A stretch of DNA of 64,000 nt, taken from NCBI GenBank assembly GCA_903870995.1, contig CAIQFD010000021.1:8461-72460 (forward strand), read 5' to 3'. Source of the stretch: an uncultured Methylophilaceae bacterium (GTDB lineage: Bacteria > Pseudomonadota > Gammaproteobacteria > Burkholderiales > Methylophilaceae). Below the pieces are notes generated by a model. The model saw only the letters and a program-made list of their open reading frames with translations. It did no database searches and was not told where the DNA came from. Positions 21,201 through 35,455 of this stretch are shown here, piece after piece (position 1 is the first letter of the stretch; each line of letters opens with the position of its first letter). A program made the position numbers and the translations under genes.

Positions 21201-21407
21201 TACTGGTGCGGTAATGCGTGCTTCAATCTCTTCAGGTGTTAGGCCTGGGGATTTGATAATAATTTTGACTTGCGTACTAGAAACGTCAGGAAAAGCATCA
21301 ATCGGCAGATTTTGTGCGGCGTAGATACCACCACCAATTAAGCCTGCAACGAAAAGCATAACCAGCAGTCGGCCACGCATAGAAGCTTGAATGATTGCGT
21401 TTAACAT
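18294..21407 (-). CDS. heavy-metal efflux RND pump, CusA/CzcA family
   Basis: 1037 aa with 12 TM segments and two large periplasmic loops. The TM4 motif is AIGMLVDAAVVVVEN. Flanked by adaptor and OMF genes with overlapping junctions. Confidence 0.88.
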   Translation of the reverse strand: MLNAIIQASMRGRLLVMLFVAGLIGGGIYAAQNLPIDAFPDVSSTQVKIIIKSPGLTPEEIEARITAPVEVEMLGLPKQTMLRAVAKYGLTDITIDFADGTDIYWARQQVSERLNNVWGNLPKDITGGIAPMTTPLGEMFMFTIEGGNLSLEERRSLLDWVIRPQLRSVAGVADVNSLGGLVRSFEITPDLARMSARGITLDDLQQALDRNNRNDGAGRLNEGEESLIVRAEGRFNSLEDVRNTVIKASAGTPIRISDIASVNIGALTRYGAVSHNGKGEAVEGLVLGLRGANARQVVEGVRERLAEIAPTLPKGVKTEVFYDRGSLVDRAIHGVSKALLEAIVLVVILLILFLGNLRAALTVALALPLAALVTFILMRSFDLSANLMSLGGLSIAIGMLVDAAVVVVENIAAHLAQHEYQAEESALIKDQEAPSTEKKTRLELITFAVQEVAVPVTAGILIIITVFLPLLTLQGLEGKLFSPVALTIVFALAGSLVLSLTVIPVLASLLLGKMKHEEPWLVRKALKIYEPALAWALKNSRKVVVSALIGLLATGIVYTQIGKIFMPTMDEGDIIIGTEKLPSINLNQSLLIDGKLQQAILSRVPEVQQVVSRVGSDELGLDPMGLNQTDQFLILNPRDTWRSPDKNVLIDHLREVMQDLPGMAYSFTQPIDMRVNEMILGVRGDLAIKIFGSDLDVLNQHAQHIKKILESIKGSQDAYTPQNSGVQYLRVEIDRMAAGRLGFDITQIEDILRAHVEGKVLGIVQEGQRRTPLLLRGEESLRFSPAEFANIRLTLPSGVSVPLSTIAKLVRTDGPVKIDRERANRMVVVTVNVRDRDLVGFVEEAKKRVSTEVKLGEGYHLLWGGQFENQQRAAQRLAIVVPIALGLIFLLLYTTFNSIRQAALILSNIPFAMIGGVFALWISGEYLSVPASVGFIALLGIAVLNGVVMVSYFNQLASEGMAIAQVVVEGAKRRLRPVLMTASIAAFGLVPLLFASGPGSEIQRPLAIVVIGGLVSSTLLTLILLPMLYQRFGQRNE

Positions 21408-22564: not shown

Positions 22565-23823
22565 GGCATTGCTCCTGCAGCTTGGTTGTAATGGGCTGTA
22601 TCCCATTGCAATTGAATTTGGCGTTGTTTCATTGCGCGCTCTGCCTCATAAGCCGAGGCTTGCACACGTAAAAGACTTACTAAATCAGTTTCGCCCAAGG
22701 TGAACGCTTTTTTAGCAAGGCGTAAGCTCTCTTGCGCGTTGGCATGCTGTTTAGTGGTAATGGCAAGCTCGGCCGTTGTGACTTCTAAATTATGCTCAGC
22801 CTCGTGAAAGGCTGCTTCCAAGGTGTAGCGCAAATGCTGTGCTTCGGTTTGGTTCTTTGCGTAGTTCACTTCAGCATTCGCTACTAAAGGCGCACTATGG
22901 GATTCCGTTTCAAACGGTATGCGTAATTTCAAACCTAAGCTTTCATTTGATTGATTATCAAAAGGCCCTCGCTGGGTTCGCGCACTCAGTGATACGGTTG
23001 GATTTTCACGACGTTCGATTTTGATTAAACTACGCTCATCATCTGCCAACAATATTTTCTTAGAGGCATCGCGCAGTGCGGGATGATTGTCATCTAGGGA
23101 TGATTTGACTTGTTGCTCAATGAAACTTTCAGGAATCGCGTTTAAGCCAGTGAGTAACTTATATCTGAACTGCGCGTGCTTCACTTCAGCTTCAGCGCGA
23201 AGTAAAAACGTTTCCGCTTGATAAGCTTCGTTTTGCGCCAGCATGATATCGGTTTTTGGTAAATCGCCTGCTTTTACACGTTTTTCTACATCACTCAGTA
23301 AGGCTAAAGACGTTTGGTGACGGCTTTTTGCTAGCGTTGCTTGGTGCATCATCATGGCGATATCCCAAAGCGCATCACGCACCATGCCAGCTACCTGCAA
23401 ACTGAGTGTTGCGCGGGTATCAACCAAGCCTAGAGCTGCATCGCGTGCAATCGCTTCACGTGCCGCTCTTTGGCCTGGTAACCAAACGGGCAACTCAAGT
23501 TCCGCTTCCCACTCCCGCTCACCGCGATTGCTGGTGATTGCGTCATTTCGGTTCAACAGGCCAATGGCAGGGGCGGCAGGCAATATGCCGTTCGCACGTT
23601 TGTTTTTCGCATCAATTTCGATTTGTTTGGCCGCTAGCAAACCGCTGTCAGGATAACGAACGATGGTTTTTTCAACCAAGTCGTGCAGGCTAAGCTGAGG
23701 GCTTATTTGCAAATCATGGTCGTGATCATCTTGCTCAGCAAAAGCTGGGCTATTCGCAAGCAAAGCCAATAACATCCATGTGAAAAACGTTGGTGGATTA
23801 AATAATCTAAATTTTTGAAACAT
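22561..23823 (-). CDS. outer membrane efflux protein (CusC/CzcC/TolC family)
   Basis: Signal peptide MFQKFRLFNPPTFFTWMLLALLANSPAFA, then two repeated OEP-type helical halves. First gene of the C-B-A operon. Confidence 0.8.
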   Translation of the reverse strand: MFQKFRLFNPPTFFTWMLLALLANSPAFAEQDDHDHDLQISPQLSLHDLVEKTIVRYPDSGLLAAKQIEIDAKNKRANGILPAAPAIGLLNRNDAITSNRGEREWEAELELPVWLPGQRAAREAIARDAALGLVDTRATLSLQVAGMVRDALWDIAMMMHQATLAKSRHQTSLALLSDVEKRVKAGDLPKTDIMLAQNEAYQAETFLLRAEAEVKHAQFRYKLLTGLNAIPESFIEQQVKSSLDDNHPALRDASKKILLADDERSLIKIERRENPTVSLSARTQRGPFDNQSNESLGLKLRIPFETESHSAPLVANAEVNYAKNQTEAQHLRYTLEAAFHEAEHNLEVTTAELAITTKQHANAQESLRLAKKAFTLGETDLVSLLRVQASAYEAERAMKQRQIQLQWDTAHYNQAAGAMP

Positions 23824-23894
23824 CACATCACTCCAATTAATACCAAGACTAAGCATTTAAGTGCTTAGTGAAAACGGCAATTGCCGTCTAAGAA

Positions 23895-24290
23895 TTAATA
23901 GCGTGAGGGCGGAGCGCGCGGCGGGGAGGTGCGATTAAAGTGTGGTTTTACAATAGGGGATGAAGCTAAGTTGTAAAACCGTCTAACGTAAACCAAGTAT
24001 AGGCTGAGTGTCGCGAATACGAATAAAACGGGAAGCAAGAATTTGAATTCAAATTTCTCAGAAACGCCGGTGAACATACCGATGCTGTGTTCGGAAAGCA
24101 CTTCATTATGGATGGTTGGTTTCTGAAAGCCAGGCGTTGCAGCTGACTCAATTTCGTCTATGTGAATATGAATACCAGGCGTTTTGTCGACAGCACCAAT
24201 CCCAAAGGCATGGGCGTGCAAAAATGGCGAGATCAGCTGTAAAGCCACTAGCCAAAAGATGAAAAACTGAATGTGCCGTTTTTTGTTCAA
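23895..24290 (-). CDS. small His-rich two-TM protein upstream of the HME-RND operon (function unknown)
   Basis: 131 aa with N-terminal TM FFIFWLVALQLI followed by SPFLHAHAFG...GIHIHID, a second TM near the C-terminus and a Pro/Arg-rich tail. Co-directional with the OMF gene, 38 nt upstream of its longest ORF. Confidence 0.5.
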   Translation of the reverse strand: MNKKRHIQFFIFWLVALQLISPFLHAHAFGIGAVDKTPGIHIHIDEIESAATPGFQKPTIHNEVLSEHSIGMFTGVSEKFEFKFLLPVLFVFATLSLYLVYVRRFYNLASSPIVKPHFNRTSPPRAPPSRY

Positions 24291-24397: not shown

Positions 24398-26068
24398 TTA
24401 ATTCACGCGGACGAGTTTTTCTCTATCGCCATCGGCGATGATTTTGCCGCCATCTAAAGCGATGACACGCTTGGCGGCTGCAAGCATCACGGCGCTGTGC
24501 GTAGTCATGATCAGCACGTCATTTTCACCGAGTAGCTGTGGCAAACGTTCAGCCAGTAGGCGTTCGCCATCGGGGTCTAAGCCTAGTGTTGGTTCATCTA
24601 ACAGCAAAATACGGCAAGGCTGAGCAAAGGTGCGGGCAAGGGCAACTTTTTGACGTTGTCCGCCAGATAAGTTGCGGCCGCCTTCTTCTAACTGCATGCC
24701 CAGTGTCATGCGGCCAGATTTAATCTCATCCGCCAAGCCAGAAGCCCAAAGCGCTTTTACAAAGCGTTCGTCATTCGCAATGACGCCAGCAACGAGTAAG
24801 TTTTCTTCTAATGTACCAGCAAATAAATTCGGGTCTTGTGACTTCCAAGCCAGCCATTTAGCACGATCTTGTGCTGAAATATCTTTAATCTCTAAGCCAT
24901 CAAATAAGATTTGGCCAGAACTAGCGGAGCTTAATCCGGCCAAGCAACGCATCAGCGTTGTTTTGCCTGCGCCAGGTTTGCCAAGTAGAGCAATGCGCTC
25001 GCCCGCTTTGATAGAAATTGAAACGCTTTCTAAAGCTACAGGGCGATCTGGATATTGTTTGCTCAGGTTAATAATGTCGATATTGCCTGCTACCATGTCG
25101 CGCGGAGTAAGTGCGCGGTCATCAACCGGCTTAAGGCTATCCTCCATCCGTTTTGCTGCGCGGCCAAAATCTTGCCATTTTCCAAGCACCATAAATAATG
25201 AAGTGACTAGAGACATGGCGCGTGAGGTGAGTAAGTTGCAAGCAATTAGACCACCCACTGAAAGTTCGCGCGCATCAATTAAGTAAGCGCCTGAAATAAG
25301 CATCACCACTGTGCTAAATGTAATCATCGAGGCGGAAAGGTTGTTGCTATGGGTAGTCGCTAAGCGACGTTCGCCATCTGCAATCGCGGTAGTTTCTGAA
25401 TGCTGAGCCCAGCGATTTAAAAATCGTGCTGAGTTTGGCACGGTACGTACGACATCTAAGGAGCCCAACACCTCGCCCATAAAGCTGAGTTTGAGCGTGT
25501 TTTCTTTTTCGGCGATTTTACTTTTCTCAGTGCTGCGGTTTTGCAATACATAACCAATTGCGGTGTAACTCAGCACCAACAGGATAGAAACAATCACCAA
25601 CTGCCAAGCGATTAAAGCCACTGCGAATAAGTAAAGTAGCAAGAAGGGCAGGTCTGCTAGGGCTAATAGATAAGTGGATGAAACAAAGTCGCGAGAGGCT
25701 GATAAATCCCGGTAGTTAGATAAAAACTTCGCAAAACCGCCTGTGATATCAGTTTGTCCGATGAGCCTGCGCCACAAATTTTCATCTGCACTTTTGGTCA
25801 GCTTTTCTGCTAAATGCTCGGTTGACCAAGCGCGCACAAAACGCATCCCTGCATCGGTTGCAAGGTAAATCAACATCCCAAAGGTGAGTGCCCAAAGCGT
25901 TTCAAAAATGCCGTTGTTAACAACCTTGTCGTAAATCAGCATAGAGAATAGCGGTAAAAGCAACTGCCCAGCGTTAACAAATAGGCTCGCTAATCCAACT
26001 TCCACCCAAGCGCCTCGGAGGGCATGCCAGAGGGGCTTTAGGGTATGTGTGGCTGGTTGGCTTATCAT
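24398..26068 (-). CDS. type I secretion ABC exporter (fused TMD-NBD, no N-terminal C39/CLD domain)
   Basis: 556 aa. The TMD begins near residue 20. Walker A GKPGAGKTT, signature LSGGQRQKV, Walker B ILLLDEPT, H-loop TTHS. Starts 7 nt after the RTX gene stop. Confidence 0.88.
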   Translation of the reverse strand: MISQPATHTLKPLWHALRGAWVEVGLASLFVNAGQLLLPLFSMLIYDKVVNNGIFETLWALTFGMLIYLATDAGMRFVRAWSTEHLAEKLTKSADENLWRRLIGQTDITGGFAKFLSNYRDLSASRDFVSSTYLLALADLPFLLLYLFAVALIAWQLVIVSILLVLSYTAIGYVLQNRSTEKSKIAEKENTLKLSFMGEVLGSLDVVRTVPNSARFLNRWAQHSETTAIADGERRLATTHSNNLSASMITFSTVVMLISGAYLIDARELSVGGLIACNLLTSRAMSLVTSLFMVLGKWQDFGRAAKRMEDSLKPVDDRALTPRDMVAGNIDIINLSKQYPDRPVALESVSISIKAGERIALLGKPGAGKTTLMRCLAGLSSASSGQILFDGLEIKDISAQDRAKWLAWKSQDPNLFAGTLEENLLVAGVIANDERFVKALWASGLADEIKSGRMTLGMQLEEGGRNLSGGQRQKVALARTFAQPCRILLLDEPTLGLDPDGERLLAERLPQLLGENDVLIMTTHSAVMLAAAKRVIALDGGKIIADGDREKLVRVN

Positions 26069-26075
26069 TAGGAGA

Positions 26076-29000
26076 TTATGCTGCTGCCCAGTTTATTGTG
26101 GCGATAACTGCACCACCATTGTATACAGTATGCGTGCCCGCTGTTGCCGAGCCTAATAATGTTGCAGAGCCTGTTGCGCTGTCAAATGTGCTGCCACCTG
26201 AAAGGATGAGCGAGTCTCCGGTGTCGTGGATGATTTTCAATGTTGGATTGGTGGTGTCAACGAAATTGATAATATCAGCAGCACTCAAAGTCACAGCTGT
26301 GTTTGCACTGTCTCCTTTGATGTTTAGAACTTCATTCGATGTACTAATTGCTGATATGGTGCTTAGGGAATAGGTGGTGCTTAATCCCTTTAGCTGGATT
26401 GTGTCGGTTCCTGTGTTGCCGTTAATATCAATTGGCAATGTGGAGTTAACATTGAGAATAAATGTGTCGTTTGCAGTAGACCCAATAAACTTTTCTATTG
26501 AGTTGAATGTATCGCCTGTGGCGTGCCCAGTTTCTAAGTTTGAAATGGACGATGTCGTAGAGTTTATATCTACCGTGACACTACCAGAGTTAGCATAAGT
26601 AACGGTATCAGTCCCTGCCCCACCGTTGAAAGCATCGGCCCCGTTACCCCCATCCATAGTATCATCTCCATTTCCTCCGTTAAGGGTGTCATCGCCATCA
26701 CCGCCTCTTAACGTGTCATTTCCATCACCACCGTTTAAGGTGTCATTTCCTCCAGCACCTTGCAGGATGTTGTCTCGGCTATTGCCTGTAATCACGTCGT
26801 TGTAATCGCTACCGTTGACGTTGTCGAAATTGCTGATGGTGTCGTTTCCACTACCACCAGTAACGTTATAGCCACTCGTTACTGTTAAGTTAACTGTAAC
26901 ACCTTGCCCAGCTTCACTTCCAATCGCACTTTTCCCAGCCCATTTATAGTCGATGGTGTTTGAGTACGCCATGTTATTTGCAATAATGACATTGTCTACA
27001 TTGGAAGCAAATATGGTGCCATTGTAATTGGTGTTTAGTATGGTGATATTTTCGATGCTCTTTAGTGTTAGATATCCGCCCAATCCACTTTGCGTTCCAC
27101 CTGTTGAATAATCGATGATGTTATTCGGTGAGAATGTACCAGTTGTCGTATCATCTTTCCCCATGTCAAGCGTATAGACAGTTGGAGTCGCAGCAAAAAC
27201 AAAAGTATCAGTGCCTGCGCCACCGTCAATTATATCTTGTTTATTATCAAGATATTTTGTAACGGTGATTATGTCATTGCCATCGCCACCATAAATAGTG
27301 GTGTTGCCTACTAAGCCTGTAAATATCTGGTCGTTACCAGCGCCGCCATAAATAGTATTTGAGTCTTTGAGCAAGTCACCTGTCTTCGTATAGCTCCCTG
27401 TTAATATATCGTCACCACTTGTGCCCACAAGCACTTGAATATTCGTATAAGTATCTTTTATAGCATCGCCAGTATTGTTTGCGGTTAAAGAGCCGTATGT
27501 AATACCATTAATGACGATTGCTGCACCATTATTAAGTGAGGCAGTTATTGCGCTTGCGCTGTTTGCATAAGTGACCGTGTTAATGCCACCACCACCATCA
27601 AATTTGTTGCCCAGTACATTACTGTTGCCAGTGAAGGTGTCGTCAAATGCTGAGCCTGTGATGTTTTGAATATTGATTAGAATATCACCGCTTGCATCAC
27701 CAGCACTCACTTGCTGGTCAGTATTGCTGAGGTCAACGGTTACGCCTGCACTGGAGTGAGTGTAAGTCACGGTGTCGGTTACGCCAGTATTGTTAGCTCC
27801 TCCATCAATAACGTTGGCATTGCTATCGCCTTCTAAAGTATCTGCAAATTTACCACCAGTAAGGTTTTCTATTCCATCGTAGGTGTCGTATTTTGCATCG
27901 CCTGCTAAGCCCTGTTTTAGCGATAAGCTAGCACTAATTGAGCCAGTCGCATATTTGTAACTGACGGTGTCACCTTGAAGGTTTGTCGTTTGATTGTAAG
28001 TTCCATCAATCGGGGTGTTGTTTCCACCAATAAAAGTGTCTCCCCCTGCAATTCCCATTAGCGTATCGTTACCATCACCACCGTCTAATATGTTTTTGTT
28101 GTTATCGCCAATTAGGATGTCGTTGTAACTAGAGCCAGTTAAATTTTCTATCGTTCCAGTAATAAATACATCACCAACAGCTTGAGCGCCACTATTGACC
28201 TCGGTGATGGAGCCATCATTTGATAGCTTTGCGACAATTCCTTCACTTGAGAATGTATAGGTAACGGTATCGCTTCCATAGCCACCGTTCATAATGTCTG
28301 CGCCAAGCCCGCCATAGATAATGTCGTTACCGGAGCCAGCATTTATCGTGTCATTGCCATCGCCTGCGTTAATGATTGTGCCAACACCTCTTTGCGGAAG
28401 CACCATCATTTGTGTGCCGTATGTATTGGCCACATTAAAATCCGACTCGGACACTGCATCACGCCAGGTCATATTTAGGTTGTTAATCACTTGAAAGTTA
28501 AATGCACCGATTTTGCCGTCTACTGTCACATCGCCGATAAAATCGACTATTTTTGAAGTGTCTAGTGAGGCAGATGTAATATTTTTCGCTTCGTAAACAA
28601 TTCCAACATTTACGCCATCCTTAAGCATGGCTGTGGTTGGTGTAATGTGCCAAGTGTAAGGAATGGTGGCATCGCGTGTGATTTCAGCACCATCAATGCT
28701 GACAAGATCAAAGCCTGGAATATCACCAATATTGTTAGAAAAGTTAATGGTAATAGCACTAATGCTCCCAAAGTTATCAATGCCGATGTGAAGGTTTTTA
28801 CTCCACTCTGCTGGTGCGCTACTAAAATTGGAGTTGTGGTTTATTACGTCATTACCAGCGCTTCCAGTGATTGTTTCTACATAAGACTGGTTTTGTGGAC
28901 TGGCATTGATGGCAAGCTGCGTCGCGCTTGCGGTAGCACTATATTCGCCACGCGGGTCAGCGTGAGACATTCCATCGTAAGTGACCTTTAATTCAGATGA

Positions 29001-29636
29001 GGTATAAAGTGCAGAAGTTACTTTAGGTGAACCAAAGCTTTCTCCAGATGCTGTATTTGTTTGAGATTTCCCCACACGATAAACCGCAGGCTGCGCTGTG
29101 ACTAATGGCGTGTATGTTTCTGGTACTTCACCGAGCCCTGTGCCTAAGCTTTTGCCAGCACCGTTACCTGTGCCAACCTTAAGCATTGGTGCTGGTGGAG
29201 GAGGTGTATCCGGGATGTGTTCGTCGTGGCTGACATTTTCATCCGTTGGTGGATTAGCATCAATATTCTCGCTCACTAAACGCAAGCTGCCTGCTTTGGC
29301 AGGGTTAGTAACGCCGACTAATTTGAATAGTTCAGGCAAGCTGATTTTGCTATCGCTAAATAGGGCATCTGGCGGATTTTTGCCTACGGCATCAATCGCG
29401 CCGTGTGGAATCACTACGTGCTCGCCGTTAGCAAAGGTGAGGAGCAAGTCAACGTCTGCTACGTCAACAAGCTTAAGTGCGCCCATGCTTTGCTTGATGG
29501 TGATGGCGCCATCAGCACTTTTTGTTGCTTGCTCTAGGTGTTGCGATGCAGGAATCGTCAGCGTGGCTTTTTCAGCGGCTTTTAATTGAATAGGCGCTTT
29601 GGTGTTTGCTGCTGCGCTATGGTTCTGTTTTGCCAT
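26076..29636 (-). CDS. large RTX (hemolysin-type Ca2+-binding repeat) secreted protein, presumed T1SS substrate
   Basis: 1186 aa with a hydrophilic N-terminus (no Sec signal). Several GGxGxD nonapeptide blocks, e.g. [42 protein letters not shown]. Recurrent DTVTY...V(D/S)L modules. The C-terminal region [25 protein letters not shown] resembles T1SS C-terminal target domains. Confidence 0.88.
   Translation of the reverse strand: [1186 protein letters not shown]
26607..26792 (-). repeat. tandem 27-nt (9-codon) RTX nonapeptide-coding repeats
   Basis: Five consecutive units encode [45 protein letters not shown]. Frame checked against the DNA (TDTVTYA at 26592-26612). Confidence 0.85.
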
Positions 29637-29687
29637 GATGTCGATTCCTTAGTGTTCTTACTCTATTTATTCGTGTTTTTTTACAGC

Positions 29688-31037
29688 TTACTTTTGGTTT
29701 TTAATGGCTTCAATTAATTCGCCTTGCATTTGAATCATCGTGCTAAGTAGACGTTGTCTTTCTGAGGCATCGTCTTTGGCTAGAATTTTAAGTTCAATCA
29801 AATGATTTGGAATTTCAACACTGTTTCTATCGGCAATGCTGAGCAAGTCACCCATTTGGCGTCCTACACGTTGTAGCTCGACTCTAAACTCTTGAGCGGC
29901 ACTTGTTTGCTCTGCAATCACGCGTAACATATCCGCACGTTGTTTTTGAAAGTCGTCAATTTCCATGCTGAGCGCGCGCTCTTGAATACGTAAGGATTCA
30001 GCAAGGCGCTCTTCAATACGGTTAAGGGTTCTAGCCGTTTCAGAGCTACCTTCCATGCTCGAGCTTGATGTTGAGTCGTTGCTATAACTAAGTGGGGTAT
30101 TATTTTGTTGAGCGCGGGCGATGTTGATGCGTTCATTCTCATCAGCCAGTAAAGCCTGCATTTCAAGGTCGCTCAAGTTGTTGGCACGCTGGTAAGCAAG
30201 CAAATCACTTGCAGTAAGCGGCTCAGCAATGCCTTCAGAAAGCTTGAATACGCTATTGTCTAAGGTTTTTTCTAGGTCGGTTTTGCTTTGACGGACGAAT
30301 GAATATTCAATATGTTGTGCCACTTCTGACCCAAGTAGCGAAGTTACTTCCCCCATGCAACGGCGAACAGAAACCATCATAAAACTCAAAATGATTGAGC
30401 CTAGTAAACCGTACATAGAGGCTGAGAATGCGATACCCATGGAATGCATAGGAGCTTCCATTTTGGTGACCATTTGCCCAAAAATAGCGATAGGGTCTGC
30501 TGTTTTGATGTCTAGATTTGAGAAGCTAGAAATCAGCGCGGCGATATCATCAAGTGTGGCTAAAAGACCAATAAATGTTCCAAGCAAGCCCATGCCGACT
30601 AGCAAGCCACTAAAGAATTGTGGAAGGGCATTGCGTGCAGTGAGGCGCTCACGTAGCTTTTTAACTTCATTTTCAATCGCCACTTGCTCTTGGTGCATGA
30701 TGGCGTGACCAGTTGATGAGGCAATCATGCGAAGCACGTGCGCCATTTCGGCATTGGAATTGAGGGCAATCTCTCTTAGTTCATCGGCGCTGGCGCCATC
30801 CTTTTGCGCTTCTGTGAAAATACTTAACTGCTCGGCTTCTTCCATCAGGCGATGGATGATACGCATAATTAAAATGCCGCCAATGAAGATAATCGCAAAA
30901 ATAATGTAGTTGATTTGCGGATGTGGATTGCTCGCAATCGTTTTGATAATCGCAGTGCGATAGAGAATTGCTGCCAACAGCAACAATGCAAATGGCAGCG
31001 CTGTATAGAGGTAGTAAATTCTTAAATTTTTATACAT
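29688..31037 (-). CDS. MotA/TolQ/ExbB-family proton-channel protein with a roughly 220-aa C-terminal coiled-coil tail
   Basis: 4 predicted TM segments. Family motifs GMGLLGTFIGLLATL (TM3) and GIAFSASMYGLLGSIILS (TM4). Residues about 230-449 are heptad-rich and charged (LNRIEERLAESLRIQERALSMEIDDFQKQRADMLRVIAEQ...). AGGA SD lies 8 nt before the ATG. Confidence 0.75.
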   Translation of the reverse strand: MYKNLRIYYLYTALPFALLLLAAILYRTAIIKTIASNPHPQINYIIFAIIFIGGILIMRIIHRLMEEAEQLSIFTEAQKDGASADELREIALNSNAEMAHVLRMIASSTGHAIMHQEQVAIENEVKKLRERLTARNALPQFFSGLLVGMGLLGTFIGLLATLDDIAALISSFSNLDIKTADPIAIFGQMVTKMEAPMHSMGIAFSASMYGLLGSIILSFMMVSVRRCMGEVTSLLGSEVAQHIEYSFVRQSKTDLEKTLDNSVFKLSEGIAEPLTASDLLAYQRANNLSDLEMQALLADENERINIARAQQNNTPLSYSNDSTSSSSMEGSSETARTLNRIEERLAESLRIQERALSMEIDDFQKQRADMLRVIAEQTSAAQEFRVELQRVGRQMGDLLSIADRNSVEIPNHLIELKILAKDDASERQRLLSTMIQMQGELIEAIKNQK

Positions 31038-31103
31038 GAATTATTCCTGTTGGTTCTTTAACATTTAAATAGTGAGTGTGTTGTTGTTTGAATTGATCTT
31101 GGG

Positions 31104-32372
31104 CTACCTAGGATCTCTAAGTGCGCGGTCAGAGAACCTTAATAATGGCGATAGCAAATACGAGATAACCGTACGTTTACCTACAACGATATCGGCAATC
31201 GCTGTCATCCCCGGCAAGATTTCCATTTCTTGGTTGTTGTCTTTTGCTTCGAGCATGATGCGGTAGTACCTGCCTTCACGTTCATCTAGCAAGGTGTCGG
31301 CACTGACGTCACTAACTTTGCCATTGAGCGTGCCGAAGGTGGCGTAGTCATATGCACCAAGGCGGATATGAGCAGGCAAGCCGTGCCTTAAATTCGCCCT
31401 ATCATTTGGTTTGGCGCGTGCTTCGATCAGGACGCTTTGGTTCGCAGGGGTGATTTCCATCAAGGCTTCCCCAGGCTTAATGACACCACCTACTGTGGTC
31501 ACTGACATGCGATTGATAATCCCAGAAACTGGGGCTTTGACTTGGTTGCGATCCAGTTTGTCTTTGTTCGTGTCGATCTCAAAACCAGACTTCTCGATTT
31601 CGCCGCGAAGTTGAGTGAGCTCAGAAGATGCTTCTGAGCGATATCGTGCCCATACTTCGCCGACTTTTGACTCGGTCTCTGCCATTGCTGCTTTGAGTCT
31701 TGGAATGGCGGCTTCTGCTTCTGAAATTTGAGAGGTGAGTCTTTGGACGCGTGATTGGCTATCAAGTAGCTCAAGGTTAGAGGCTGCGCCGTTACGTTTC
31801 AAACCCTCAATGACTTTGTATTGCTGTTGAGCCACTTCTAGCTCAGACGATAGGTTTCTGCGGCGGCTTTCTGCTTCGCTAATCTCGCCACGCTTTTGAG
31901 CATTTTGGTCTCGAAGCACGCGCACTTCATCCGACACTCTTGCACGCCTCGCTTCAAATGCGAGTGTTTCTGCTCTGCGCACATCCGGGTCTTGAATGTC
32001 TTTTGGGAAATTAATCGCGCCAGCTCCACTCGATTCAGCGATCAATCTCGCTTCGCGGCCTCGGAGGGTAGTCGATTTAGATTGTTCTTGATCTAAGTTT
32101 GATTTTACTTGCACATCAGACAGCTCTAGTAATGCTTGGCCCGCAGTTACTTTTTGGCCTTCATGGACCAAAATGTTACGCACAATTCCACCCTCTAAAT
32201 GTTGGATGATTTGTGATTTTCCAGCAGGAACAATCCGACCCTCAGTGCGCACGATGACGTCAACTTTGGCAATGCTCGCCCATAGCAAAAACAAAACACA
32301 AGCGATCGCCGTGACTGCCACAAATGCGGTGCGAGGATGAGTGCGTTGCATGATTTTGAAAAATTTATTCAT
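31104..32372 (-). CDS. HlyD-family type I secretion membrane fusion protein
   Basis: N-terminal TM AFVAVTAIACVLFLLWASI, lipoyl-like segment VHEGQKVTAGQALLEL, a long coiled-coil and a C-terminal beta-barrel region. The ATG lies 2 nt after the upstream MotB-like stop. Confidence 0.88.
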   Translation of the reverse strand: MNKFFKIMQRTHPRTAFVAVTAIACVLFLLWASIAKVDVIVRTEGRIVPAGKSQIIQHLEGGIVRNILVHEGQKVTAGQALLELSDVQVKSNLDQEQSKSTTLRGREARLIAESSGAGAINFPKDIQDPDVRRAETLAFEARRARVSDEVRVLRDQNAQKRGEISEAESRRRNLSSELEVAQQQYKVIEGLKRNGAASNLELLDSQSRVQRLTSQISEAEAAIPRLKAAMAETESKVGEVWARYRSEASSELTQLRGEIEKSGFEIDTNKDKLDRNQVKAPVSGIINRMSVTTVGGVIKPGEALMEITPANQSVLIEARAKPNDRANLRHGLPAHIRLGAYDYATFGTLNGKVSDVSADTLLDEREGRYYRIMLEAKDNNQEMEILPGMTAIADIVVGKRTVISYLLSPLLRFSDRALRDPR

Positions 32373-32374
32373 GA

Positions 32375-33058
32375 CTATTTTGGTGAAACCATGACTTTTG
32401 AGTTGTCTGCGTTATTGCTACCTTCACGCACTAAAACTTCAATATTTTCAGCGGGTACTTTTAGCGCAATGAGCTGATTTCTGACAGACATAGCACGGTA
32501 AAAGGCTAAACGTTTTGCTTCAGAAAAGTCTTTTGGTGTGGTTACTTCAATATGTGCACTGCCAGTTTTTGCAATGGTGCTTAATGCACTCCGAACAGTT
32601 TCAGTTTCGCTTGGGTTAAGGCTGACAGCATCTTGTGTAAAACTCACCACGACTTGTCCGCCAGCATCGGTAGCGTTTTGTAAGCTTTTTTCAGGGGTTT
32701 TGTTTGGCGTTTTGGCGACCACCACTTTTTGCGGTGTTGTCGCGTTGTTCTTGATTTGCGCTTCCTGTTTGAGTGCAGCTAAGCTTTGTTGAAGCGATTG
32801 GATTTGTTCGTCTTTGGCCTTAATCGCCTCATTTGTGCTACTTGTTGGGTCAATAGATTCAGGGTTCTCGACAGTTTGCTGTTGTGCTGAAGGTGCTGGG
32901 TTCTCATTAGTGTGGCGGCTTAAGGCGAGCGCAAACATGAAAACCGCGATAATCATAATGGTCAACACAAACAGCAAATTTAATACTAAGTTGGTAACGG
33001 CATCGACGTACCCTGGCCAGAAAATATCTGACCCGTCACCACTTCCTTCATGTTCCAT
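32375..33058 (-). CDS. MotB-like protein: MotB-type TM with conserved Asp plus a divergent OmpA-like C-terminal domain
   Basis: N-terminus FWPGYVDAVTNLVLNLLFVL aligns with E. coli MotB WKIAYADFMTAMMAFF (Y-x-D-x-x-T; Asp19 codon at 33002-33004). A low-complexity/coiled linker follows. C-terminus VSFTQDAVSL...AHIEVTT...AKRLAFYRAMSVRNQLI resembles the OmpA_C fold motif. Confidence 0.7.
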   Translation of the reverse strand: MEHEGSGDGSDIFWPGYVDAVTNLVLNLLFVLTIMIIAVFMFALALSRHTNENPAPSAQQQTVENPESIDPTSSTNEAIKAKDEQIQSLQQSLAALKQEAQIKNNATTPQKVVVAKTPNKTPEKSLQNATDAGGQVVVSFTQDAVSLNPSETETVRSALSTIAKTGSAHIEVTTPKDFSEAKRLAFYRAMSVRNQLIALKVPAENIEVLVREGSNNADNSKVMVSPK

Positions 33059-33093
33059 TTAACGTTGCTCCTAGTTAATCTTTTGGCCGTGAA

Positions 33094-34938
33094 TTAATTG
33101 CCACCGAGGTTCTGTGCGCTAGCAACAACTGTGCTTGGATTGCCTTGCACTAAACGGGCGATTTGTGAAATGGCCGTCATCTCTTGAATATGCAAAGTCA
33201 CTAAACGGGTGCGTGCTTGGTAGTAGCGGTCGTAAACGTCAAGCATGTCGAGCAGGGACTGATTGCCTGATACCATGCGCGCTGACATTGATTTTGCTGC
33301 GCTAGAAATTGAATCTAGCTCGTTGTACCCGCCCGCGAGTCTTTCTCTGGTTGCTTCTAGCGTTGCGTATTGAGCTGAGAGTGATTGAATGACGCGGCGT
33401 TGCTGGTCATCTAAGCGATAGGTAAGCTCCATGTAGCGGGCTTGCTTTTCATCGTTCAACTTCCAATCACTGCCGCCATTTAAAACTGACCAATTCATGA
33501 CCATCATTAAACGTTGGTCATGTTGGCTGCCTGCTTGGCCGCCTGCATGAGCGCTGTCTGTATCAGAATATTCAAGATTCAAGGTCGGTAAAAAGCGCGC
33601 TTTTGCCGCATTTTTATCTAAACTTGCCGCATTAATTTCAGCGCGTAATGATGAAATATCAGGGTTAGCTTCCAAAGAGCGAGGCATGGCTTCATCGAGA
33701 GTTTTCGGTACGATGGATAAACCAACATCATCAAGCTCTGGCAAACGGAGTGAGCTTGGCGATAAATTAATTAAACGCACCAACTCAATTCCTGCGGCAG
33801 CTTGGGCAGCCTCTTGTTCAACTCGTGCTGATTTCGCACTCAGCATTCTTGCACGCACGCGTTCTTTATCTGAATTGCTTGCTGCTCCAGCTTTTGCGCG
33901 TTTGTCGATGTATTGGAATAACTCTTTCAATTGATTTTCGTAATCAATCGCCATGTTGGCTTGAATGCGGGTTGAGGTAAGTGCTAAATAGGCATTCACT
34001 GTGGCAACATAAGTATCGCCTTGGCTTGCGCGCACGCCTTCTTGGCGTGACTCTTCAATCACTTTTCTGCGCTTCCAATCATACAGGCCGGCGACATCTA
34101 AGATTGGTTGACGCAACGTGACGCTAGTATCTTGTCTGTTGTGGATGCTACGTGCGACCTCTTTTCCTGTCGTAGTATCAATCTGTGCGCCCGGCGTTGA
34201 AGTTTCGCGGCCTGCTTTTACGTTCACTAACAGTGATGGCAACATAAACGCGCGCGCTTGACCTGTTTGTGCTTCCGCTTGATTTAAGCGTGAGCTAGCA
34301 ACTAACACATCCCGGCTAAACCCCATCGATGCCTTAATTGCTTGGCTTAAATCAATGCCGCTGATGCTTTCAACTGGGCTTGCCTCGTTTGAGCGAAAGC
34401 TTTTTACTCCGGCCGTGAATTGCTTTCTTGCATCAGCATCAACGGTGATTTCTAGTGTGCCAATTAGGCTGGAGAGTGAGTGATCGGATGGAGAGTCAAA
34501 CCTTGGTGCGACTTCTGAATGCTTTGTATTATCTGTACTGCTTCCAACAAACTCAGCAATTTCATTCGAATTGCTATCCAATGGCTTTTGTATTGTTGAT
34601 GAAGTGCCCACATCTTTCGTGGAAGTGATTAAGGGGGTTGATTGTCGTCCAACAATACGTTCTGAGGCTGGTAAGATAGCATTCATGGCTTGTACAGCGG
34701 CAGCTGCTGCAGCTGCCGCTGCATTCGCCGCCACTGCAGCAGAGTTTGCTGCATCAACGGCAGCATTGGCAGCTTTCGCCGCCGCGGAAAGCGTTGTATT
34801 AGGTTTTGAATTGTTGGCCTGCAAGTCTGCAGCAAGTACGCCATTGCTTAAGGCACATATGCCGAATGAGAGCATGATGTAAGCGCTGATGCTTGCGGGC
34901 TTTAAAAGAGGCTCTTTTGGTTGCTTGGTATGGTTCAT
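33094..34938 (-). CDS. TolC-family outer membrane protein with a roughly 150-aa N-terminal extension
   Basis: 614 aa with signal peptide ...ALSNGVLA/AD. The TolC-type core starts near residue 190 (IDLSQAIKASMGFSRDVLVASSRLNQAEAQ...) with two repeated halves. The preceding Ala-rich and Ser-rich segments are not part of canonical TolC. Confidence 0.8.
   Translation of the reverse strand: MNHTKQPKEPLLKPASISAYIMLSFGICALSNGVLAADLQANNSKPNTTLSAAAKAANAAVDAANSAAVAANAAAAAAAAAVQAMNAILPASERIVGRQSTPLITSTKDVGTSSTIQKPLDSNSNEIAEFVGSSTDNTKHSEVAPRFDSPSDHSLSSLIGTLEITVDADARKQFTAGVKSFRSNEASPVESISGIDLSQAIKASMGFSRDVLVASSRLNQAEAQTGQARAFMLPSLLVNVKAGRETSTPGAQIDTTTGKEVARSIHNRQDTSVTLRQPILDVAGLYDWKRRKVIEESRQEGVRASQGDTYVATVNAYLALTSTRIQANMAIDYENQLKELFQYIDKRAKAGAASNSDKERVRARMLSAKSARVEQEAAQAAAGIELVRLINLSPSSLRLPELDDVGLSIVPKTLDEAMPRSLEANPDISSLRAEINAASLDKNAAKARFLPTLNLEYSDTDSAHAGGQAGSQHDQRLMMVMNWSVLNGGSDWKLNDEKQARYMELTYRLDDQQRRVIQSLSAQYATLEATRERLAGGYNELDSISSAAKSMSARMVSGNQSLLDMLDVYDRYYQARTRLVTLHIQEMTAISQIARLVQGNPSTVVASAQNLGGN
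34675..34788 (-). repeat. GCN-rich low-complexity coding tract (poly-Ala/Asn helix) inside the TolC-like gene
   Basis: Encodes SAAAKAANAAVDAANSAAVAANAAAAAAAAAVQAMNAI. The DNA shows runs of gcagctgctgcagctgccgctgc. Confidence 0.8.
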
Positions 34939-35455
34939 TCTCTTTGGGTTCTGATTTTTTCTAATGAGTTAAAATTAAACACATTTTATTAATGGTATGT
35001 ATTAGATAAAAATAAAAATCACATATTTTGTTTAAAGATAACTTAATTTATTTTGTTGTTTGATTTTATATATTTTGTTGGTTTTATTGAATTTTATCAT
35101 GTTAAAAATCAAAATAAAAACATTGATTTAGTATGTATTGCAGGTAAATATTAAATAAAAAAACAAATGTTAAATTCAACATTTATATCTTCATGTTTTT
35201 AATGAAATTGATTTCTTAAATGAGCTTTAAATATTTATTAATATAATACATACCATATTTTATTTTTTTGCCTAAAAATGGTGCTTTTAGTCTGAAACGC
35301 GCGTTGAAACATCATGAAGTTTGCATTGAATTTGACGATTTTGTATTAAATCTGCTTTTGAACGCGCTTTAGATTCAAATCCGATTTATAATTTCGGCTC
35401 TGTTGATTTGGTCAAGCCAAGTCACATCCATTAAACAACTCCAAAAGAGAAGAAA
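34939..35455. promoter_or_regulatory. 517-bp extremely AT-rich divergent control region (T1SS operon / gnd)
   Basis: Hand counts on lines 35041 and 35161 give 15-17% GC. Contains a 13-nt inverted repeat (34992-35004 / 35244-35256), phased A-tracts and short direct repeats. Confidence 0.6.

What the first reader, a model, noticed from the sequence alone, without database searches (positions are those of the whole stretch)
24398..34938. Type I secretion operon with an interleaved MotA/MotB-like proton-channel pair (candidate PMF-stator-coupled T1SS)
Six co-directional minus-strand genes form one tight unit. In transcription order they are the TolC-like OMP (34938-33094), MotB-like protein (33058-32375), HlyD MFP (32372-31104), MotA/ExbB-like protein (31037-29688), 1186-aa RTX substrate (29636-26076) and ABC exporter (26068-24398). 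The gaps are 35, 2, 66, 51 and 7 nt. The MFP gene is physically sandwiched between the two stator-like genes, and the MotB-like stop and HlyD start are only 2 nt apart (TAG-tc-ATG), so this is not a chance neighbour. A canonical T1SS needs only ABC, MFP and OMP. 5:2-type PMF motors are established for flagella (MotAB), TonB (ExbBD), Tol-Pal (TolQR), gliding/T9SS (GldLM) and Zorya defence (ZorAB). To my knowledge they are not established as dedicated T1SS subunits. One hypothesis is that the pair couples proton flow to a step of RTX-protein export, release or surface anchoring. Another is that it tethers and energises the MFP/OMP through peptidoglycan. From memory, OmpA-family genes have been noted in some Bap/RTX adhesin T1SS operons (e.g. 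the Shewanella bpfA locus), so the MotB-like gene alone may have precedent. The MotA-type partner with a coiled-coil tail is the novel part.
Basis: partly seen in the sequence, partly recalled or inferred. Interest (0 to 1): 0.88.

Follow-up and report, generated by a model that had tools for sequence, protein, structure and literature searches.

The report
Proton-channel pair built into secretion operon
This is a real, widely conserved six-gene type I secretion operon that carries its own MotA/MotB-like proton-channel pair, but the idea is not new: the pair is a distant relative of Salmonella SiiAB, the known proton channel of the SPI-4 type I secretion system.

Summary
Six co-directional minus-strand genes sit at exactly the stated coordinates: TolC-like OMP, MotB-like, HlyD MFP, MotA-like, RTX protein, ABC exporter. 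MotB-like and MFP are separated by TAG-tc-ATG. The order is not chance. In GTDB species representatives, MFP lies directly upstream of the MotA-like gene in 76/76 loci with room. MotB-like lies upstream of MFP in 72/72, and TolC upstream of that in 68/68. These loci span Beta-, Gamma- and Deltaproteobacteria-type lineages.

The claim that such stators are not established T1SS subunits is wrong. Salmonella SPI-4 SiiA/SiiB form a proton channel attached to the SiiCDF T1SS and control surface retention of the adhesin SiiE. I recovered SPI-4 DNA and compared directly:
- SiiB matches this MotA-like family (hhalign 94.6%, E 6.6e-8; 33% identity over 113 aa; the same four hydrophobic segments).
- SiiA shares the WP-x-[FY]-VD aspartate motif and the RLxxxR arginines needed for peptidoglycan binding.
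- SiiA's crystal structure is among the best fold matches.

New here are the interleaved gene order, an RTX substrate with a family-specific N-terminal domain, an OMP with an Ala/Asn-rich N-terminal extension, a modular repeated tail, and a broad environmental distribution with no curated family model.

Verdict: new variant of a known kind, moderate interest.

The parts
34939..35455 (-). AT-rich 517-nt intergenic region upstream of the operon (divergent from the 6-phosphogluconate dehydrogenase gene); presumed promoter/regulatory region
   Evidence: Sequence read. One sigma-70-like match at 35415-35388, not above shuffle expectation. No Rfam family such as a c-di-GMP riboswitch.
33094..34938 (-). 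TolC-family outer membrane protein, 614 aa. The TolC core is about residues 196-590.
   Evidence: PF02321 95 bits; TIGR01844 154 bits (below the 225 cutoff). Upstream of MotB-like in 68/68 loci with room. Median ORF length 604 aa across loci.
34354..34938 (-). Family-specific N-terminal extension of the OMP (residues 1-195): signal peptide, a conserved Ala/Asn-rich helix (TLSAAAKAANAAVDAANSAAVAANAAAAAAAAAVQAMNAILPA), a variable linker, then a conserved VP-ER-SL-GL-G-FE-PV block
   Evidence: The extension and its Ala/Asn-rich motif recur in the homologous OMPs of Methylotenera, Rhodoferax, Dechloromonas and Geobacter-type loci. SiiC (439 aa) has no such extension.
32375..33058 (-). MotB/SiiA-like subunit, 227 aa. 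N-terminal FWPGYVD19 motif plus one TM helix (about 20-46), a helical/disordered linker, and a compact OmpA-like domain (about 134-227) with R183 and R188.
   Evidence: Invariant W14 P15 G16 Y17 V18 D19, R183, Y187, R188 in 45 homologues. AF2 C-domain pLDDT about 90. Foldseek: OmpA-like folds; SiiA-PD 6QVP E 7.6e-6, TM 0.68-0.71, rmsd 2.5-3.2 A. SiiA motif matches. PRK09039 N-terminus E 5e-7.
33002..33004 (-). Codon of Asp19, the predicted proton-binding aspartate (counterpart of SiiA Asp13 and MotB Asp32/33)
   Evidence: Invariant in alignment A3. It lies in the WP-x-[FY]-VD motif shared with SiiA. SiiA D13N impairs proton flux.
31104..32372 (-). HlyD-family T1SS membrane fusion protein, 422 aa, lying between the two stator-like genes. 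About 14 cytoplasmic residues, then one TM helix.
   Evidence: TIGR01843 357 bits, above cutoff. Adjacent to the MotA-like gene in 76/76 loci. N-terminus and conservation. 22% identical to SiiD, E 2e-28.
30357..31037 (-). MotA/ExbB/SiiB-like subunit, membrane core (residues 1-227). Four hydrophobic segments (7-31, 44-62, 144-169, 202-224), an invariant NPHPQINY loop, the GLLVGMGLLGTFIGLLATL channel helix, and a long loop between segments 3 and 4 (inferred periplasmic).
   Evidence: PF01618 23.6 bits. Invariant columns. Foldseek ExbB/TolQ probability 1.0. hhalign to SiiB 94.6%, E 6.6e-8 over residues 11-227. BLASTP 33%/113 aa, E 2e-10. Same four segments in SiiB.
29688..30356 (-). Tail of the MotA-like subunit (residues 228-449), inferred cytoplasmic: a variable low-confidence linker, then a conserved helical unit of about 110 aa (RIEERLAES..IDDFQKQRADMLR..ELQRVGRQ)
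   Evidence: AF2 helix 332-448. The unit is repeated 1-4 times in homologues of 600-700 aa. Cytoplasmic location is inferred from the positive-inside rule and from the topology of solved ExbB/TolQ/ZorA.
26076..29636 (-). RTX (GGxGxD nonapeptide repeat) protein, 1186 aa, the presumed T1SS substrate
   Evidence: PF00353 110 bits in 4+ stretches. Homologous ORFs in other loci reach more than 3300 aa.
29067..29549 (-). Family-specific N-terminal domain of the substrate (about residues 30-190; core motif VDVADVDLLL.F..G....IP.GA.DA ... LFK.VG....AKAGSLR.VSEN), followed by a Pro-rich linker. Candidate retention or anchoring module.
   Evidence: Query residues 51-125 are covered in all 73 loci with a hit, the flanks of the 30-190 stretch in 56-70, while the rest of the protein is covered in only about 40-46. 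The hit is always the first one downstream of the MotA-like gene. No Pfam family matches.
24398..26068 (-). T1SS ABC exporter, 556 aa (TMD + NBD). It lacks the N-terminal domain of about 145 aa that most homologues in this cassette carry.
   Evidence: TIGR03375 435 bits, aligned to model positions 147-690 only. Only 7 nt separate it from the RTX stop. 17 of the full-length homologous ORFs listed carry a conserved N-terminal domain of about 145 aa; the Methylobacillus loci L020-L028 also lack it.

Best explanation
The six genes encode one type I secretion machine of the SPI-4 (SiiABCDF) kind. It comprises an ABC exporter, a HlyD-type adaptor and a TolC-like channel, plus a dedicated inner-membrane proton channel or motor. 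That motor is built from a MotA/ExbB-like subunit (SiiB-like, probably a pentamer) and a MotB-like subunit (SiiA-like, probably a dimer).

Shown:
- The pair belongs to the MotA/ExbB and MotB/OmpA-like folds.
- It keeps the critical aspartate and the peptidoglycan-binding arginines.
- It is homologous to SiiAB.
- It is inherited as one block with the T1SS and a large RTX protein.

Inferred, by analogy with SiiAB:
- The MotB-like dimer anchors to peptidoglycan.
- Protons pass via Asp19.
- The resulting conformational work or rotation of the MotA-like ring is passed to the T1SS. The route would be the adaptor's membrane helix and/or the ABC protein, the latter via the cytoplasmic tail.
- This work holds the conserved N-terminal domain of the RTX protein in the channel. 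The protein then stays displayed on the cell surface while the cell is energised, and is released when PMF or the anchoring signal is lost.

On this reading the pair controls surface retention versus release, not export as such.
For: Identity of the parts.

Invariant residues: Asp19 and R183/R188; channel-helix T154, T161, S205, S207.

Co-inheritance:
- Synteny of 76/76, 72/72 and 68/68 across at least three proteobacterial classes.
- A 2-nt junction suggesting translational coupling.
- No other conserved co-directional gene in the neighbourhood.

Homology to SiiAB:
- hhalign A2 vs SiiB 94.6%, E 6.6e-8.
- BLASTP 33%/113 aa, E 2e-10.
- 0/1000 shuffles reach the profile scores.
- Identical four-segment hydropathy layout.
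- Shared WP-x-[FY]-VD and RLxxxR motifs.
- SiiA-PD among the best fold matches.
- Same database fingerprint: PF01618 plus ZorA, and PRK09039.

Function of SiiAB from the literature:
- Proton flux depends on Asp13, and PG binding on R162/R167.
- siiAB deletion leaves SiiE secretion intact but abolishes adhesion and invasion.
- CCCP lowers and acidification raises SiiE retention.
- SiiB binds the ABC protein SiiF.

A family-specific N-terminal substrate domain and an OMP N-terminal extension fit a plug-in-channel retention device.
Against: - No experiment exists for this family. The retention role is carried over from a relative whose channel core is only about 25-33% identical.
- The tails of SiiB and this protein cannot be aligned with confidence.
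- The substrates are unrelated: RTX here, BIg-repeat SiiE there.
- The SiiA to MotB-like similarity is weak at profile level (hhalign probability 15%).
- The 5:2 stoichiometry, ion flow and any contact with MFP, ABC or OMP were not tested.
- One distant relative is a stand-alone pair with no T1SS nearby, and two others lie on contigs too short to show their context. The family is therefore not exclusively secretion-linked.
- The window's ABC lacks the N-terminal domain that most cassettes have, so details may differ between lineages.
Confidence: 0.6

Rival explanations
1. The pair energises export itself. PMF-driven work by the MotA/MotB-like unit is needed to start or complete translocation of very large RTX substrates (1,000 to more than 3,300 aa), for example by acting on the adaptor as ExbBD acts on TonB. 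Loss of the pair would then block secretion.
For: - The MFP gene lies between the two stator genes in every locus. This suits an MFP that docks on the MotA-like ring as TonB and TolA dock on ExbB and TolQ (structures 9ddo and 9ddm appear among the fold matches).
- The substrates are very long.
- From my own knowledge, an early PMF-dependent step has been reported for HlyA export.
Against: - In the only studied relative, deleting siiAB does not stop SiiE secretion.
- The MFP membrane helix has no conserved polar SHLS-like motif of the TonB/TolA type.
- Canonical T1SS export equally large RTX adhesins without such a unit.
Confidence: 0.2
2. The unit is a ZorAB-like sensor or signal transducer. 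Peptidoglycan or envelope status gates proton flow, and the rotating modular cytoplasmic tail regulates the ABC ATPase or recruits the substrate. It would act as a switch for when to secrete, not as a mechanical clamp.
For: - The best defence-library matches are ZorA/ZorB.
- The tail is built from a unit of about 110 aa present in 1-4 copies. Tail integrity and length are essential for Zorya signalling.
- SiiB binds SiiF, and SiiAB binds the chemoreceptor CheM, which switches SiiE between secreted and retained states.
- Most ABC proteins in the cassette carry an extra cytoplasmic N-terminal domain that could be the tail's partner.
Against: - ZorA matches are weak (E 2e-7 at best) and limited to the channel core.
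- No effector genes are conserved nearby.
- The window's own ABC lacks the N-terminal domain.
- Pentameric bundling of the tail was not tested.
Confidence: 0.15
3. The pair is a passive scaffold. It only tethers the T1SS to peptidoglycan through the OmpA-like domain, with no functional ion flow.
For: - OmpA-like genes without a MotA partner occur in other adhesin T1SS operons and affect biofilm formation (Shewanella SO4321).
- The OmpA-like domain is compact, and its Pfam score is below threshold.
Against: - Asp19 and the flanking WPGYVD motif are invariant in all 45 aligned homologues.
- The polar channel-helix residues of the MotA-like subunit are invariant.
- SiiAB does conduct protons in an Asp13-dependent way.
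Confidence: 0.04
4. The two genes serve an unrelated function (a Tol/Ton-like envelope system or an anti-phage Zorya) and merely sit inside a T1SS operon.
For: One distant relative of the pair is a two-gene module next to restriction-modification genes. PADLOC gives ZorA/ZorB names.
Against: - Perfect synteny with T1SS genes across classes.
- No TonB/TolA/Pal or ZorC/D/E-type partners.
- Homology to SiiAB, which is T1SS-bound.
Confidence: 0.01

Closest known systems
SiiA/SiiB of the Salmonella SPI-4 type I secretion system (siiABCDEF)
   Same: - A MotB-like subunit of about 210-227 aa with Asp at the start of its single TM inside a WP-x-[FY]-VD motif, a flexible linker, and a compact OmpA-like domain with an RLxxxR arginine pair.
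- A MotA/ExbB-like subunit of about 450-462 aa with four hydrophobic segments at matching positions, a long loop between the last two, and more than 220 residues of C-terminal tail.
- Both are encoded in the same operon as OMP, MFP, giant substrate and ABC, and those four genes are in the same relative order.
- Sequence homology was shown here, as was fold similarity to 6QVP.
   Different: - Gene order: SPI-4 has siiA-siiB adjacent and upstream of siiC. Here the order is OMP, B, MFP, A.
- The substrate is an RTX protein with its own conserved N-terminal domain, not a BIg-repeat adhesin.
- The OMP carries a conserved N-terminal extension of about 190 aa, absent from SiiC.
- The tail is a repeatable unit of about 110 aa that cannot be aligned to the SiiB tail.
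- Identity is low (25-33% in the core).
- Hosts are environmental methylotrophs, Rhodocyclales, Burkholderiales, Geobacter/Desulfuromonas-type bacteria and an uncultured gammaproteobacterium, not an enteric pathogen.
ZorA/ZorB (Zorya anti-phage defence)
   Same: A 5:2-type MotAB relative whose A subunit has a long helical cytoplasmic tail of variable length and whose B subunit binds peptidoglycan. These are the best hits in the defence library. Tail function is described.
   Different: There are no ZorC/D/E/F/G effector genes, and the partner genes are a T1SS. The matches are weak and limited to the core. The tail is much shorter here (about 220 aa against about 500).
ExbB-ExbD-TonB and TolQ-TolR-TolA
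   Same: These are the best solved-structure matches for the MotA-like membrane core (Foldseek probability 1.0, TM 0.5-0.64 on the target). A single-pass periplasm-spanning partner is encoded alongside: here that would be the MFP.
   Different: - The B subunit has an OmpA-like domain rather than the ExbD/TolR fold.
- There is an extra N-terminal hydrophobic segment and a long tail.
- There is no TonB/TolA-like protein, and the MFP helix has no SHLS-type motif.
Lap/Bpf-type RTX adhesin T1SS (LapA-LapBCE-LapG-LapD; Shewanella BpfA with OmpA-like SO4321)
   Same: A T1SS dedicated to a large RTX surface protein whose N-terminus is thought to stay in the OMP. An OmpA-family gene in the operon influences biofilm formation.
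   Different: No LapG protease or LapD c-di-GMP receptor is present here. The Shewanella operon has no MotA-like gene. Retention there is controlled by proteolysis, not PMF.
Flagellar stator MotA/MotB
   Same: A four-TM A subunit, a B subunit with Asp in the TM and an OmpA-like PG-binding domain, and PMF use.
   Different: There are no flagellar partners. The sequence match is only at superfamily level. The long tail replaces the FliG-binding cytoplasmic loop logic.

Membership tests
Type I secretion system (ABC-MFP-OMP with C-terminally targeted substrate) | ABC exporter with transmembrane and nucleotide-binding domains | tested here: met
   PF00664, PF00005; TIGR03375 435 bits over model positions 147-690
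Type I secretion system (ABC-MFP-OMP with C-terminally targeted substrate) | HlyD-family periplasmic adaptor | tested here: met
   TIGR01843 357 bits, above the 208.65 cutoff
Type I secretion system (ABC-MFP-OMP with C-terminally targeted substrate) | TolC-family outer membrane channel | tested here: met
   PF02321 95 bits (cutoff 22). TIGR01844 154 bits is below its 225 cutoff, so this is a divergent member.
Type I secretion system (ABC-MFP-OMP with C-terminally targeted substrate) | Substrate with RTX repeats and an uncleaved C-terminal secretion signal | tested here: inconclusive
   RTX repeats: PF00353 110 bits. The C-terminal signal has no usable model and TIGR03661 did not hit. Actual secretion cannot be tested here.
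MotA/ExbB/TolQ proton-channel superfamily (A subunit) | Profile match to PF01618 and the ExbB/TolQ/MotA fold of the last two TM helices | tested here: met
   PF01618 23.6 vs cutoff 22.9. Foldseek ExbB 5sv0 E 1.6e-4, probability 1.0; TolQ 8vlw TM 0.64. Invariant GLLGTFIGL motif.
MotA/ExbB/TolQ proton-channel superfamily (A subunit) | Assembly as a pentamer around a B-subunit dimer (5:2) | not testable with these tools
   No multimer prediction was available. Needs AF-Multimer or cryo-EM.
MotB-type B subunit | Single N-terminal TM helix with a conserved acidic residue | tested here: met
   One hydrophobic segment at 28-46. D19 invariant in 45 sequences.
MotB-type B subunit | C-terminal OmpA-like peptidoglycan-binding domain | tested here: met
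   The sequence profile is below threshold (PF00691 18.3 vs 27.2), but the fold is clear: 70 PDB matches at E <= 1e-3, and all 50 listed are OmpA-like domains or proteins that contain one. Actual PG binding was not tested.
SiiAB (SPI-4 T1SS proton channel) | A subunit homologous to SiiB | tested here: met
   hhalign 94.6%, E 6.6e-8, 187 columns. BLASTP 33%/113 aa, E 2e-10. SiiB vs family members up to 54.7 bits. Same four hydrophobic segments. The tails are not alignable.
SiiAB (SPI-4 T1SS proton channel) | B subunit homologous to SiiA, with Asp13-equivalent and R162/R167-equivalent residues | tested here: met
   WPSFVD13 vs WPGYVD19; SLR162LGYER167 vs AKR183LAFYR188. Profile score 18.7 bits, 0/1000 shuffles. 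phmmer 14-20 bits against 142 family members. Foldseek 6QVP TM 0.68-0.71. hhalign alone is weak (15%).
SiiAB (SPI-4 T1SS proton channel) | Encoded within a T1SS operon with a giant surface protein | tested here: met
SiiAB (SPI-4 T1SS proton channel) | siiA-siiB adjacent at the head of the operon; BIg-repeat non-RTX substrate | tested here: not met
   The order here is OMP-B-MFP-A-substrate-ABC, against A(B-type)-B(A-type)-OMP-MFP in L090. The substrate is RTX.
SiiAB (SPI-4 T1SS proton channel) | Proton conduction and control of substrate retention | not testable with these tools
   Needs pHluorin, CCCP and surface-display assays as.
Zorya (ZorAB plus effectors) | ZorA/ZorB with adjacent ZorC/D, ZorE or ZorF/G effector genes | tested here: not met
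   Only weak core matches. No conserved extra genes in 80 loci.
Lap-type adhesin T1SS | LapG-type periplasmic protease and LapD-type c-di-GMP receptor linked to the T1SS | tested here: not met
   None in the window flanks and none among conserved neighbours.

The most novel reading that the evidence does not exclude
SiiAB is only the enteric tip of a large, ancient class of 'motorised' type I secretion systems. In this class a 5:2 rotary unit is an integral subunit. The adaptor (MFP), always encoded between the two stator genes, would act as the TonB/TolA-like force transducer. The modular cytoplasmic tail would couple the motor to the ABC ATPase. PMF would then mechanically gate a plug formed by the substrate's conserved N-terminal domain and the OMP's Ala/Asn-rich extension. 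That would add a new mechanical output for 5:2 motors, alongside flagellar rotation, Ton/Tol, gliding/T9SS and Zorya.
Probability: 0.25. Interest if true: 0.75.

Novelty: new variant of a known kind. Interest (0 to 1): 0.5.

Why it matters
How SiiAB uses the proton-motive force to help a T1SS is stated as an open question in the SiiA structure paper and in a 2025 review. Until now the system has been treated as a Salmonella peculiarity.

This window shows that SiiAB-like pairs are part of a widespread, strongly conserved T1SS cassette in environmental Proteobacteria:
- 154 relatives were found among GTDB species representatives.
- 708 clusters at 50% identity reach E <= 1e-10 in 1.84 billion proteins.

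The cassette also brings extra conserved parts:
- the MFP gene between the stator genes;
- a modular tail;
- an OMP N-terminal extension;
- a family-specific N-terminal domain on the substrate.

These point to where the motor might act. They also give many natural variants, and culturable non-pathogenic hosts, in which to test it. Neither Pfam nor NCBIfam has a model specific to these subunits, so they are currently annotated as hypothetical or generic MotA/TolQ/ExbB proteins.

Tried and rejected
1. Sequence searches of both proteins and their family profiles against PDB sequences gave nothing useful: ZorA E 0.15, Pal E 0.32. Fold search was needed.
2. The NCBIfam and Pfam copies have no specific model. 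PF27720, precomputed on long homologues, is not in the Pfam copy used.
3. The 131-aa ORF downstream of the ABC gene (23895-24290) was tested as a split-off copy of the missing ABC N-terminal domain. It is unrelated, E 4.7.
4. A search with the substrate's first 200 residues in the 5.8-billion-protein index returned only 7 fragments. The domain's distribution was taken from tblastn on the loci instead.
5. A c-di-GMP riboswitch or other Rfam element upstream of the operon was looked for; none was found. Promoter and terminator scans are at background.
6. A TonB/TolA-like SHLS motif in the MFP membrane helix is absent.
7. Wille et al. 2014, the primary SiiAB paper, is not held. Its content is cited through later papers.
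8. SiiB was not among named members of the distant representative clusters. SPI-4 DNA was finally obtained by scanning metagenome contigs with a siiA primer taken from a paper's supplement.
9. Zorya, Lap-type and chance-neighbour readings were rejected on synteny and missing partners.

Full report
OBSERVATION

The gaps are 35, 2, 66, 51 and 7 nt. The MotB-like stop and the MFP start read TAG-tc-ATG.

Profile searches gave these assignments:
- 614 aa: a TolC-family OMP (PF02321, 95 bits).
- 422 aa: a T1SS adaptor (TIGR01843, 357 bits, above cutoff).
- 1186 aa: an RTX protein (PF00353, 110 bits).
- 556 aa: an LssB-type T1SS ABC exporter (TIGR03375, 435 bits).

The two unusual genes score weakly by sequence. 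The 449-aa protein just passes PF01618 MotA_ExbB (23.6 vs 22.9 bits) and hits ZorA models (E 2e-7). The 227-aa protein hits OmpA below threshold (E 3e-3), the N-terminus of PRK09039 'peptidoglycan-binding protein' (E 5e-7) and ZorB (E 1.5e-4).

STRUCTURE

An AF2 model of the 449-aa protein (54-sequence alignment, pLDDT 78) has an all-helical membrane core. Its best solved matches are ExbB and TolQ (Foldseek probability 1.0, TM 0.5-0.64 on the target), with ZorA lower down.

It has four hydrophobic segments (7-31, 44-62, 144-169, 202-224). Positive charges flank them in a way that puts both termini, and the 220-residue tail, in the cytoplasm (this topology is an inference).

The 227-aa protein (pLDDT 71, C-domain about 90) has three parts: one TM helix, a helical/disordered linker, and a compact OmpA-like domain. 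Among 70 PDB matches at E <= 1e-3, the crystal structure of the SiiA periplasmic domain (6QVP) ranks second. It also has the best target-normalised TM-scores (0.68-0.71) and the lowest rmsd (2.5-3.2 A).

Alignments show these invariant residues:
- W14 P15 G16 Y17 V18 D19, R183, Y187 and R188 in the B subunit.
- An NPHPQINY loop, the channel helix GLLVGMGLLGTFIGLLATL, and AFSASMYGLLGS in the A subunit.

CONSERVATION OF THE LINKAGE

The A subunit has more than 519 close homologues in the 5.8-billion-protein index. Sources label them 'hypothetical' or generic 'MotA/TolQ/ExbB'. A scan of GTDB species representatives found 154 relatives, of which 80 loci were kept.

tblastn with the six window proteins shows the same order in essentially every locus: TolC, MotB-like, MFP, MotA-like, RTX, ABC. 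Counted strictly:
- MFP is immediately upstream of the MotA-like gene in 76/76 loci with room.
- MotB-like is immediately upstream of MFP in 72/72.
- TolC is upstream of that in 68/68.

The hosts include Methylophilaceae, Rhodocyclales, Burkholderiales (Rhodoferax, Limnohabitans), Geobacterales/Desulfuromonadales, Desulfobulbales and Chromatiales. The window itself comes from an uncultured organism with about 45% GC. Its 96%-identical relatives are MAG contigs.

All-against-all clustering of ORFs found no further conserved co-directional gene. The six genes are therefore the unit.

A full HMMER scan of 1.84 billion representatives gave 1252 hits at E <= 1e-3, 708 at <= 1e-10 and 160 at <= 1e-30. 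Contexts of more distant relatives vary:
- Two have OMP, B, MFP, A, RTX preceded by a second ABC-MFP pair.
- One has OMP, ABC, MFP, B', B, A.
- One is a stand-alone B-A pair beside restriction-modification genes.
- Two are on short contigs where the B-like gene lies directly upstream of A.

OTHER FAMILY-SPECIFIC PARTS

1. The substrate. It ranges from about 1,000 to more than 3,300 aa. Only its first 190 residues or so are conserved everywhere (residues 51-125 are covered in all 73 loci with a hit). The motif is VDVADVDLLL.F..G....IP.GA.DA ... AKAGSLR.VSEN, followed by a Pro-rich linker. No Pfam family matches.
2. The OMP. It is about 600 aa because of a conserved N-terminal extension. This contains an Ala/Asn-rich helix (TLSAAANAANSAV.AANAAAAAA...AVEAINA.LPPSQR) and a conserved block just before the TolC core.
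3. The A-subunit tail. It ends in a helical unit of about 110 aa that is present once here and up to four times in 600-700-aa homologues.
4. The ABC protein. Most copies in the cassette have a conserved N-terminal domain of about 145 aa. The window and the Methylobacillus loci lack it.
5. The MFP. It has only about 14 cytoplasmic residues and no polar TonB/TolA-like motif in its helix.

WHAT IS KNOWN

It said that 5:2-type PMF units are not established as T1SS subunits.

SiiA (MotB-like) and SiiB (MotA/ExbB-like) are inner-membrane subunits of the SiiCDF T1SS. The literature reports the following:
- They form a complex and conduct protons in an Asp13-dependent way.
- SiiA binds peptidoglycan through R162/R167.
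- Deleting siiAB leaves SiiE secretion intact but abolishes adhesion and invasion.
- CCCP lowers and acidification raises SiiE surface retention.
- SiiB binds the ABC protein SiiF.
- SiiAB binds the chemoreceptor CheM, which switches SiiE between released and retained states.

A 2025 evolutionary paper lists 'type I secretion (SiiAB)' among the pentamer:dimer motors.

Its neighbour is LapG-like, not MotA-like.

I found no paper describing the family in this window.

DIRECT COMPARISON WITH SiiAB

No tool holds Salmonella genomes. I took the siiA forward primer from the supplement of the SiiA paper and scanned metagenome contigs with it. This recovered siiA-siiB-siiC-siiD (L090).

SiiB compared with the A-subunit family:
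- hhalign probability 94.6%, E 6.6e-8, over 187 columns (residues 11-227 here, 16-211 in SiiB).
- BLASTP 33% identity over 113 aa, E 2e-10.
- Profile score 33.2 bits, with 0/1000 shuffles above 7.2.
- SiiB has the same four hydrophobic segments at matching positions, the same long loop between the last two (shared motif MV..[ML].[EA]P[LM]..M..AF..S.YG), and about 250 residues after the last segment.

SiiA compared with the B-subunit family:
- The aspartate motif is shared: WPSFVD13 in SiiA, WPGYVD19 here.
- The arginine pair is shared: SLR162LGYER167 in SiiA, AKR183LAFYR188 here.
- Profile score 18.7 bits, 0/1000 shuffles.
- hhalign on its own is weak (15%).

The database fingerprints of SiiA and SiiB are the same as those of the window's pair. 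I conclude that the pair is a distant homologue of SiiAB.

The differences are:
- the interleaved gene order, against siiA-siiB at the operon head;
- the RTX substrate with its own N-terminal domain;
- the OMP extension (SiiC is 439 aa);
- the repeatable tail unit, which cannot be aligned to SiiB's tail;
- the host range.

MECHANISM

Shown:
- fold and family of each part;
- conservation of the proton-binding Asp and the PG-binding Arg pair;
- co-inheritance with the T1SS;
- homology to SiiAB.

Inferred: 5:2 assembly, PG anchoring, proton flow, and transmission of work to the T1SS so that the substrate's N-terminal domain is held in the channel, giving PMF-dependent surface retention. I put about 0.6 on this overall. 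The 'SiiAB-type T1SS accessory' part is near certain; the retention role is roughly even odds.

Rivals:
- energising export itself (0.2);
- ZorAB-like tail signalling to the ABC protein (0.15);
- a passive PG tether (0.04);
- an unrelated function (0.01).

VERDICT

The concept is already known, but this is an uncharacterised, widespread and architecturally distinct variant. It could make the open question of how SiiAB-type channels act on a T1SS much easier to study. Novelty: new variant of a known kind. Interest: 0.5.

Noticed in passing
window 18294-24290 (minus strand): A CusA/CzcA-type heavy-metal RND efflux operon lies directly downstream of the T1SS ABC gene. It comprises an OEP of 431 aa, a CzcB-like adaptor of 399 aa and a CusA/CzcA of 1037 aa (TIGR00914, 1087 bits), plus a 131-aa membrane ORF with no family match. 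The 96%-identical relatives go straight from the ABC gene to the Na+/H+ antiporter gene, so this looks like a lineage-specific insertion.
   Followed up: partly
window 24398-26068; loci L002, L007, L027 etc. versus L020-L028: Most ABC exporters of this cassette carry a conserved N-terminal domain of about 145 aa (motif LCG..R.....L......W..Q..R....G..AR......L.LPGDLALL......LL.R..QRWQ). The window's lineage and the Methylobacillus species have lost it. It occupies the position of a C39-like domain, but its family was not tested.
   Followed up: partly
window 34354-34938; same region in L001, L002, L007-L009, L011, L013, L015, L018, L019, L061: The TolC-like OMP has a conserved Ala/Asn-rich helix (AANAA-type repeats, about 45 aa) right after the signal peptide. 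Three copies in a TolC trimer could form a coiled coil. Its location and role are unknown.
   Followed up: partly
L087 5645-6990: A distant T1SS-linked relative encodes two tandem MotB-like paralogues upstream of the MotA-like gene. One has the WPGYVD motif. The other has WQGYVS, i.e. no aspartate. This hints at a heterodimeric B subunit with a single proton-binding site.
   Followed up: no
L085 7200-9392: A stand-alone MotB-like (254 aa, FWPGYVD) plus MotA-like (463 aa) pair has no T1SS genes nearby. It sits beside a type II restriction-modification system and an AAA_15 ATPase, a possible defence-island context. This suggests the family also has non-secretion uses.
   Followed up: no
L078-L080 (Limnohabitans, Burkholderiaceae) and the contigs of P0260 and P0413: A sub-variant of the cassette carries a second ABC-MFP pair upstream of the OMP gene: ABC, MFP, OMP, B, MFP, A, RTX, with a further ABC gene downstream where the contig extends far enough. 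That makes two adaptors, and up to two exporters, around one OMP and one stator pair.
   Followed up: no
alignment A1 columns 400-800 (P0027, P0057, P0111, P0118, P0120): The tail of the MotA-like subunit grows by tandem duplication of one helical unit of about 110 aa, from 1 copy up to 4. This is reminiscent of the length variation of ZorA tails.
   Followed up: partly
L035 (MAG labelled Gemmatales): One locus, assigned to a planctomycete MAG, has the MFP and MotA-like genes but no RTX or ABC hit in the 10 kb downstream. It is either a different substrate type or a mis-binned contig.
   Followed up: no
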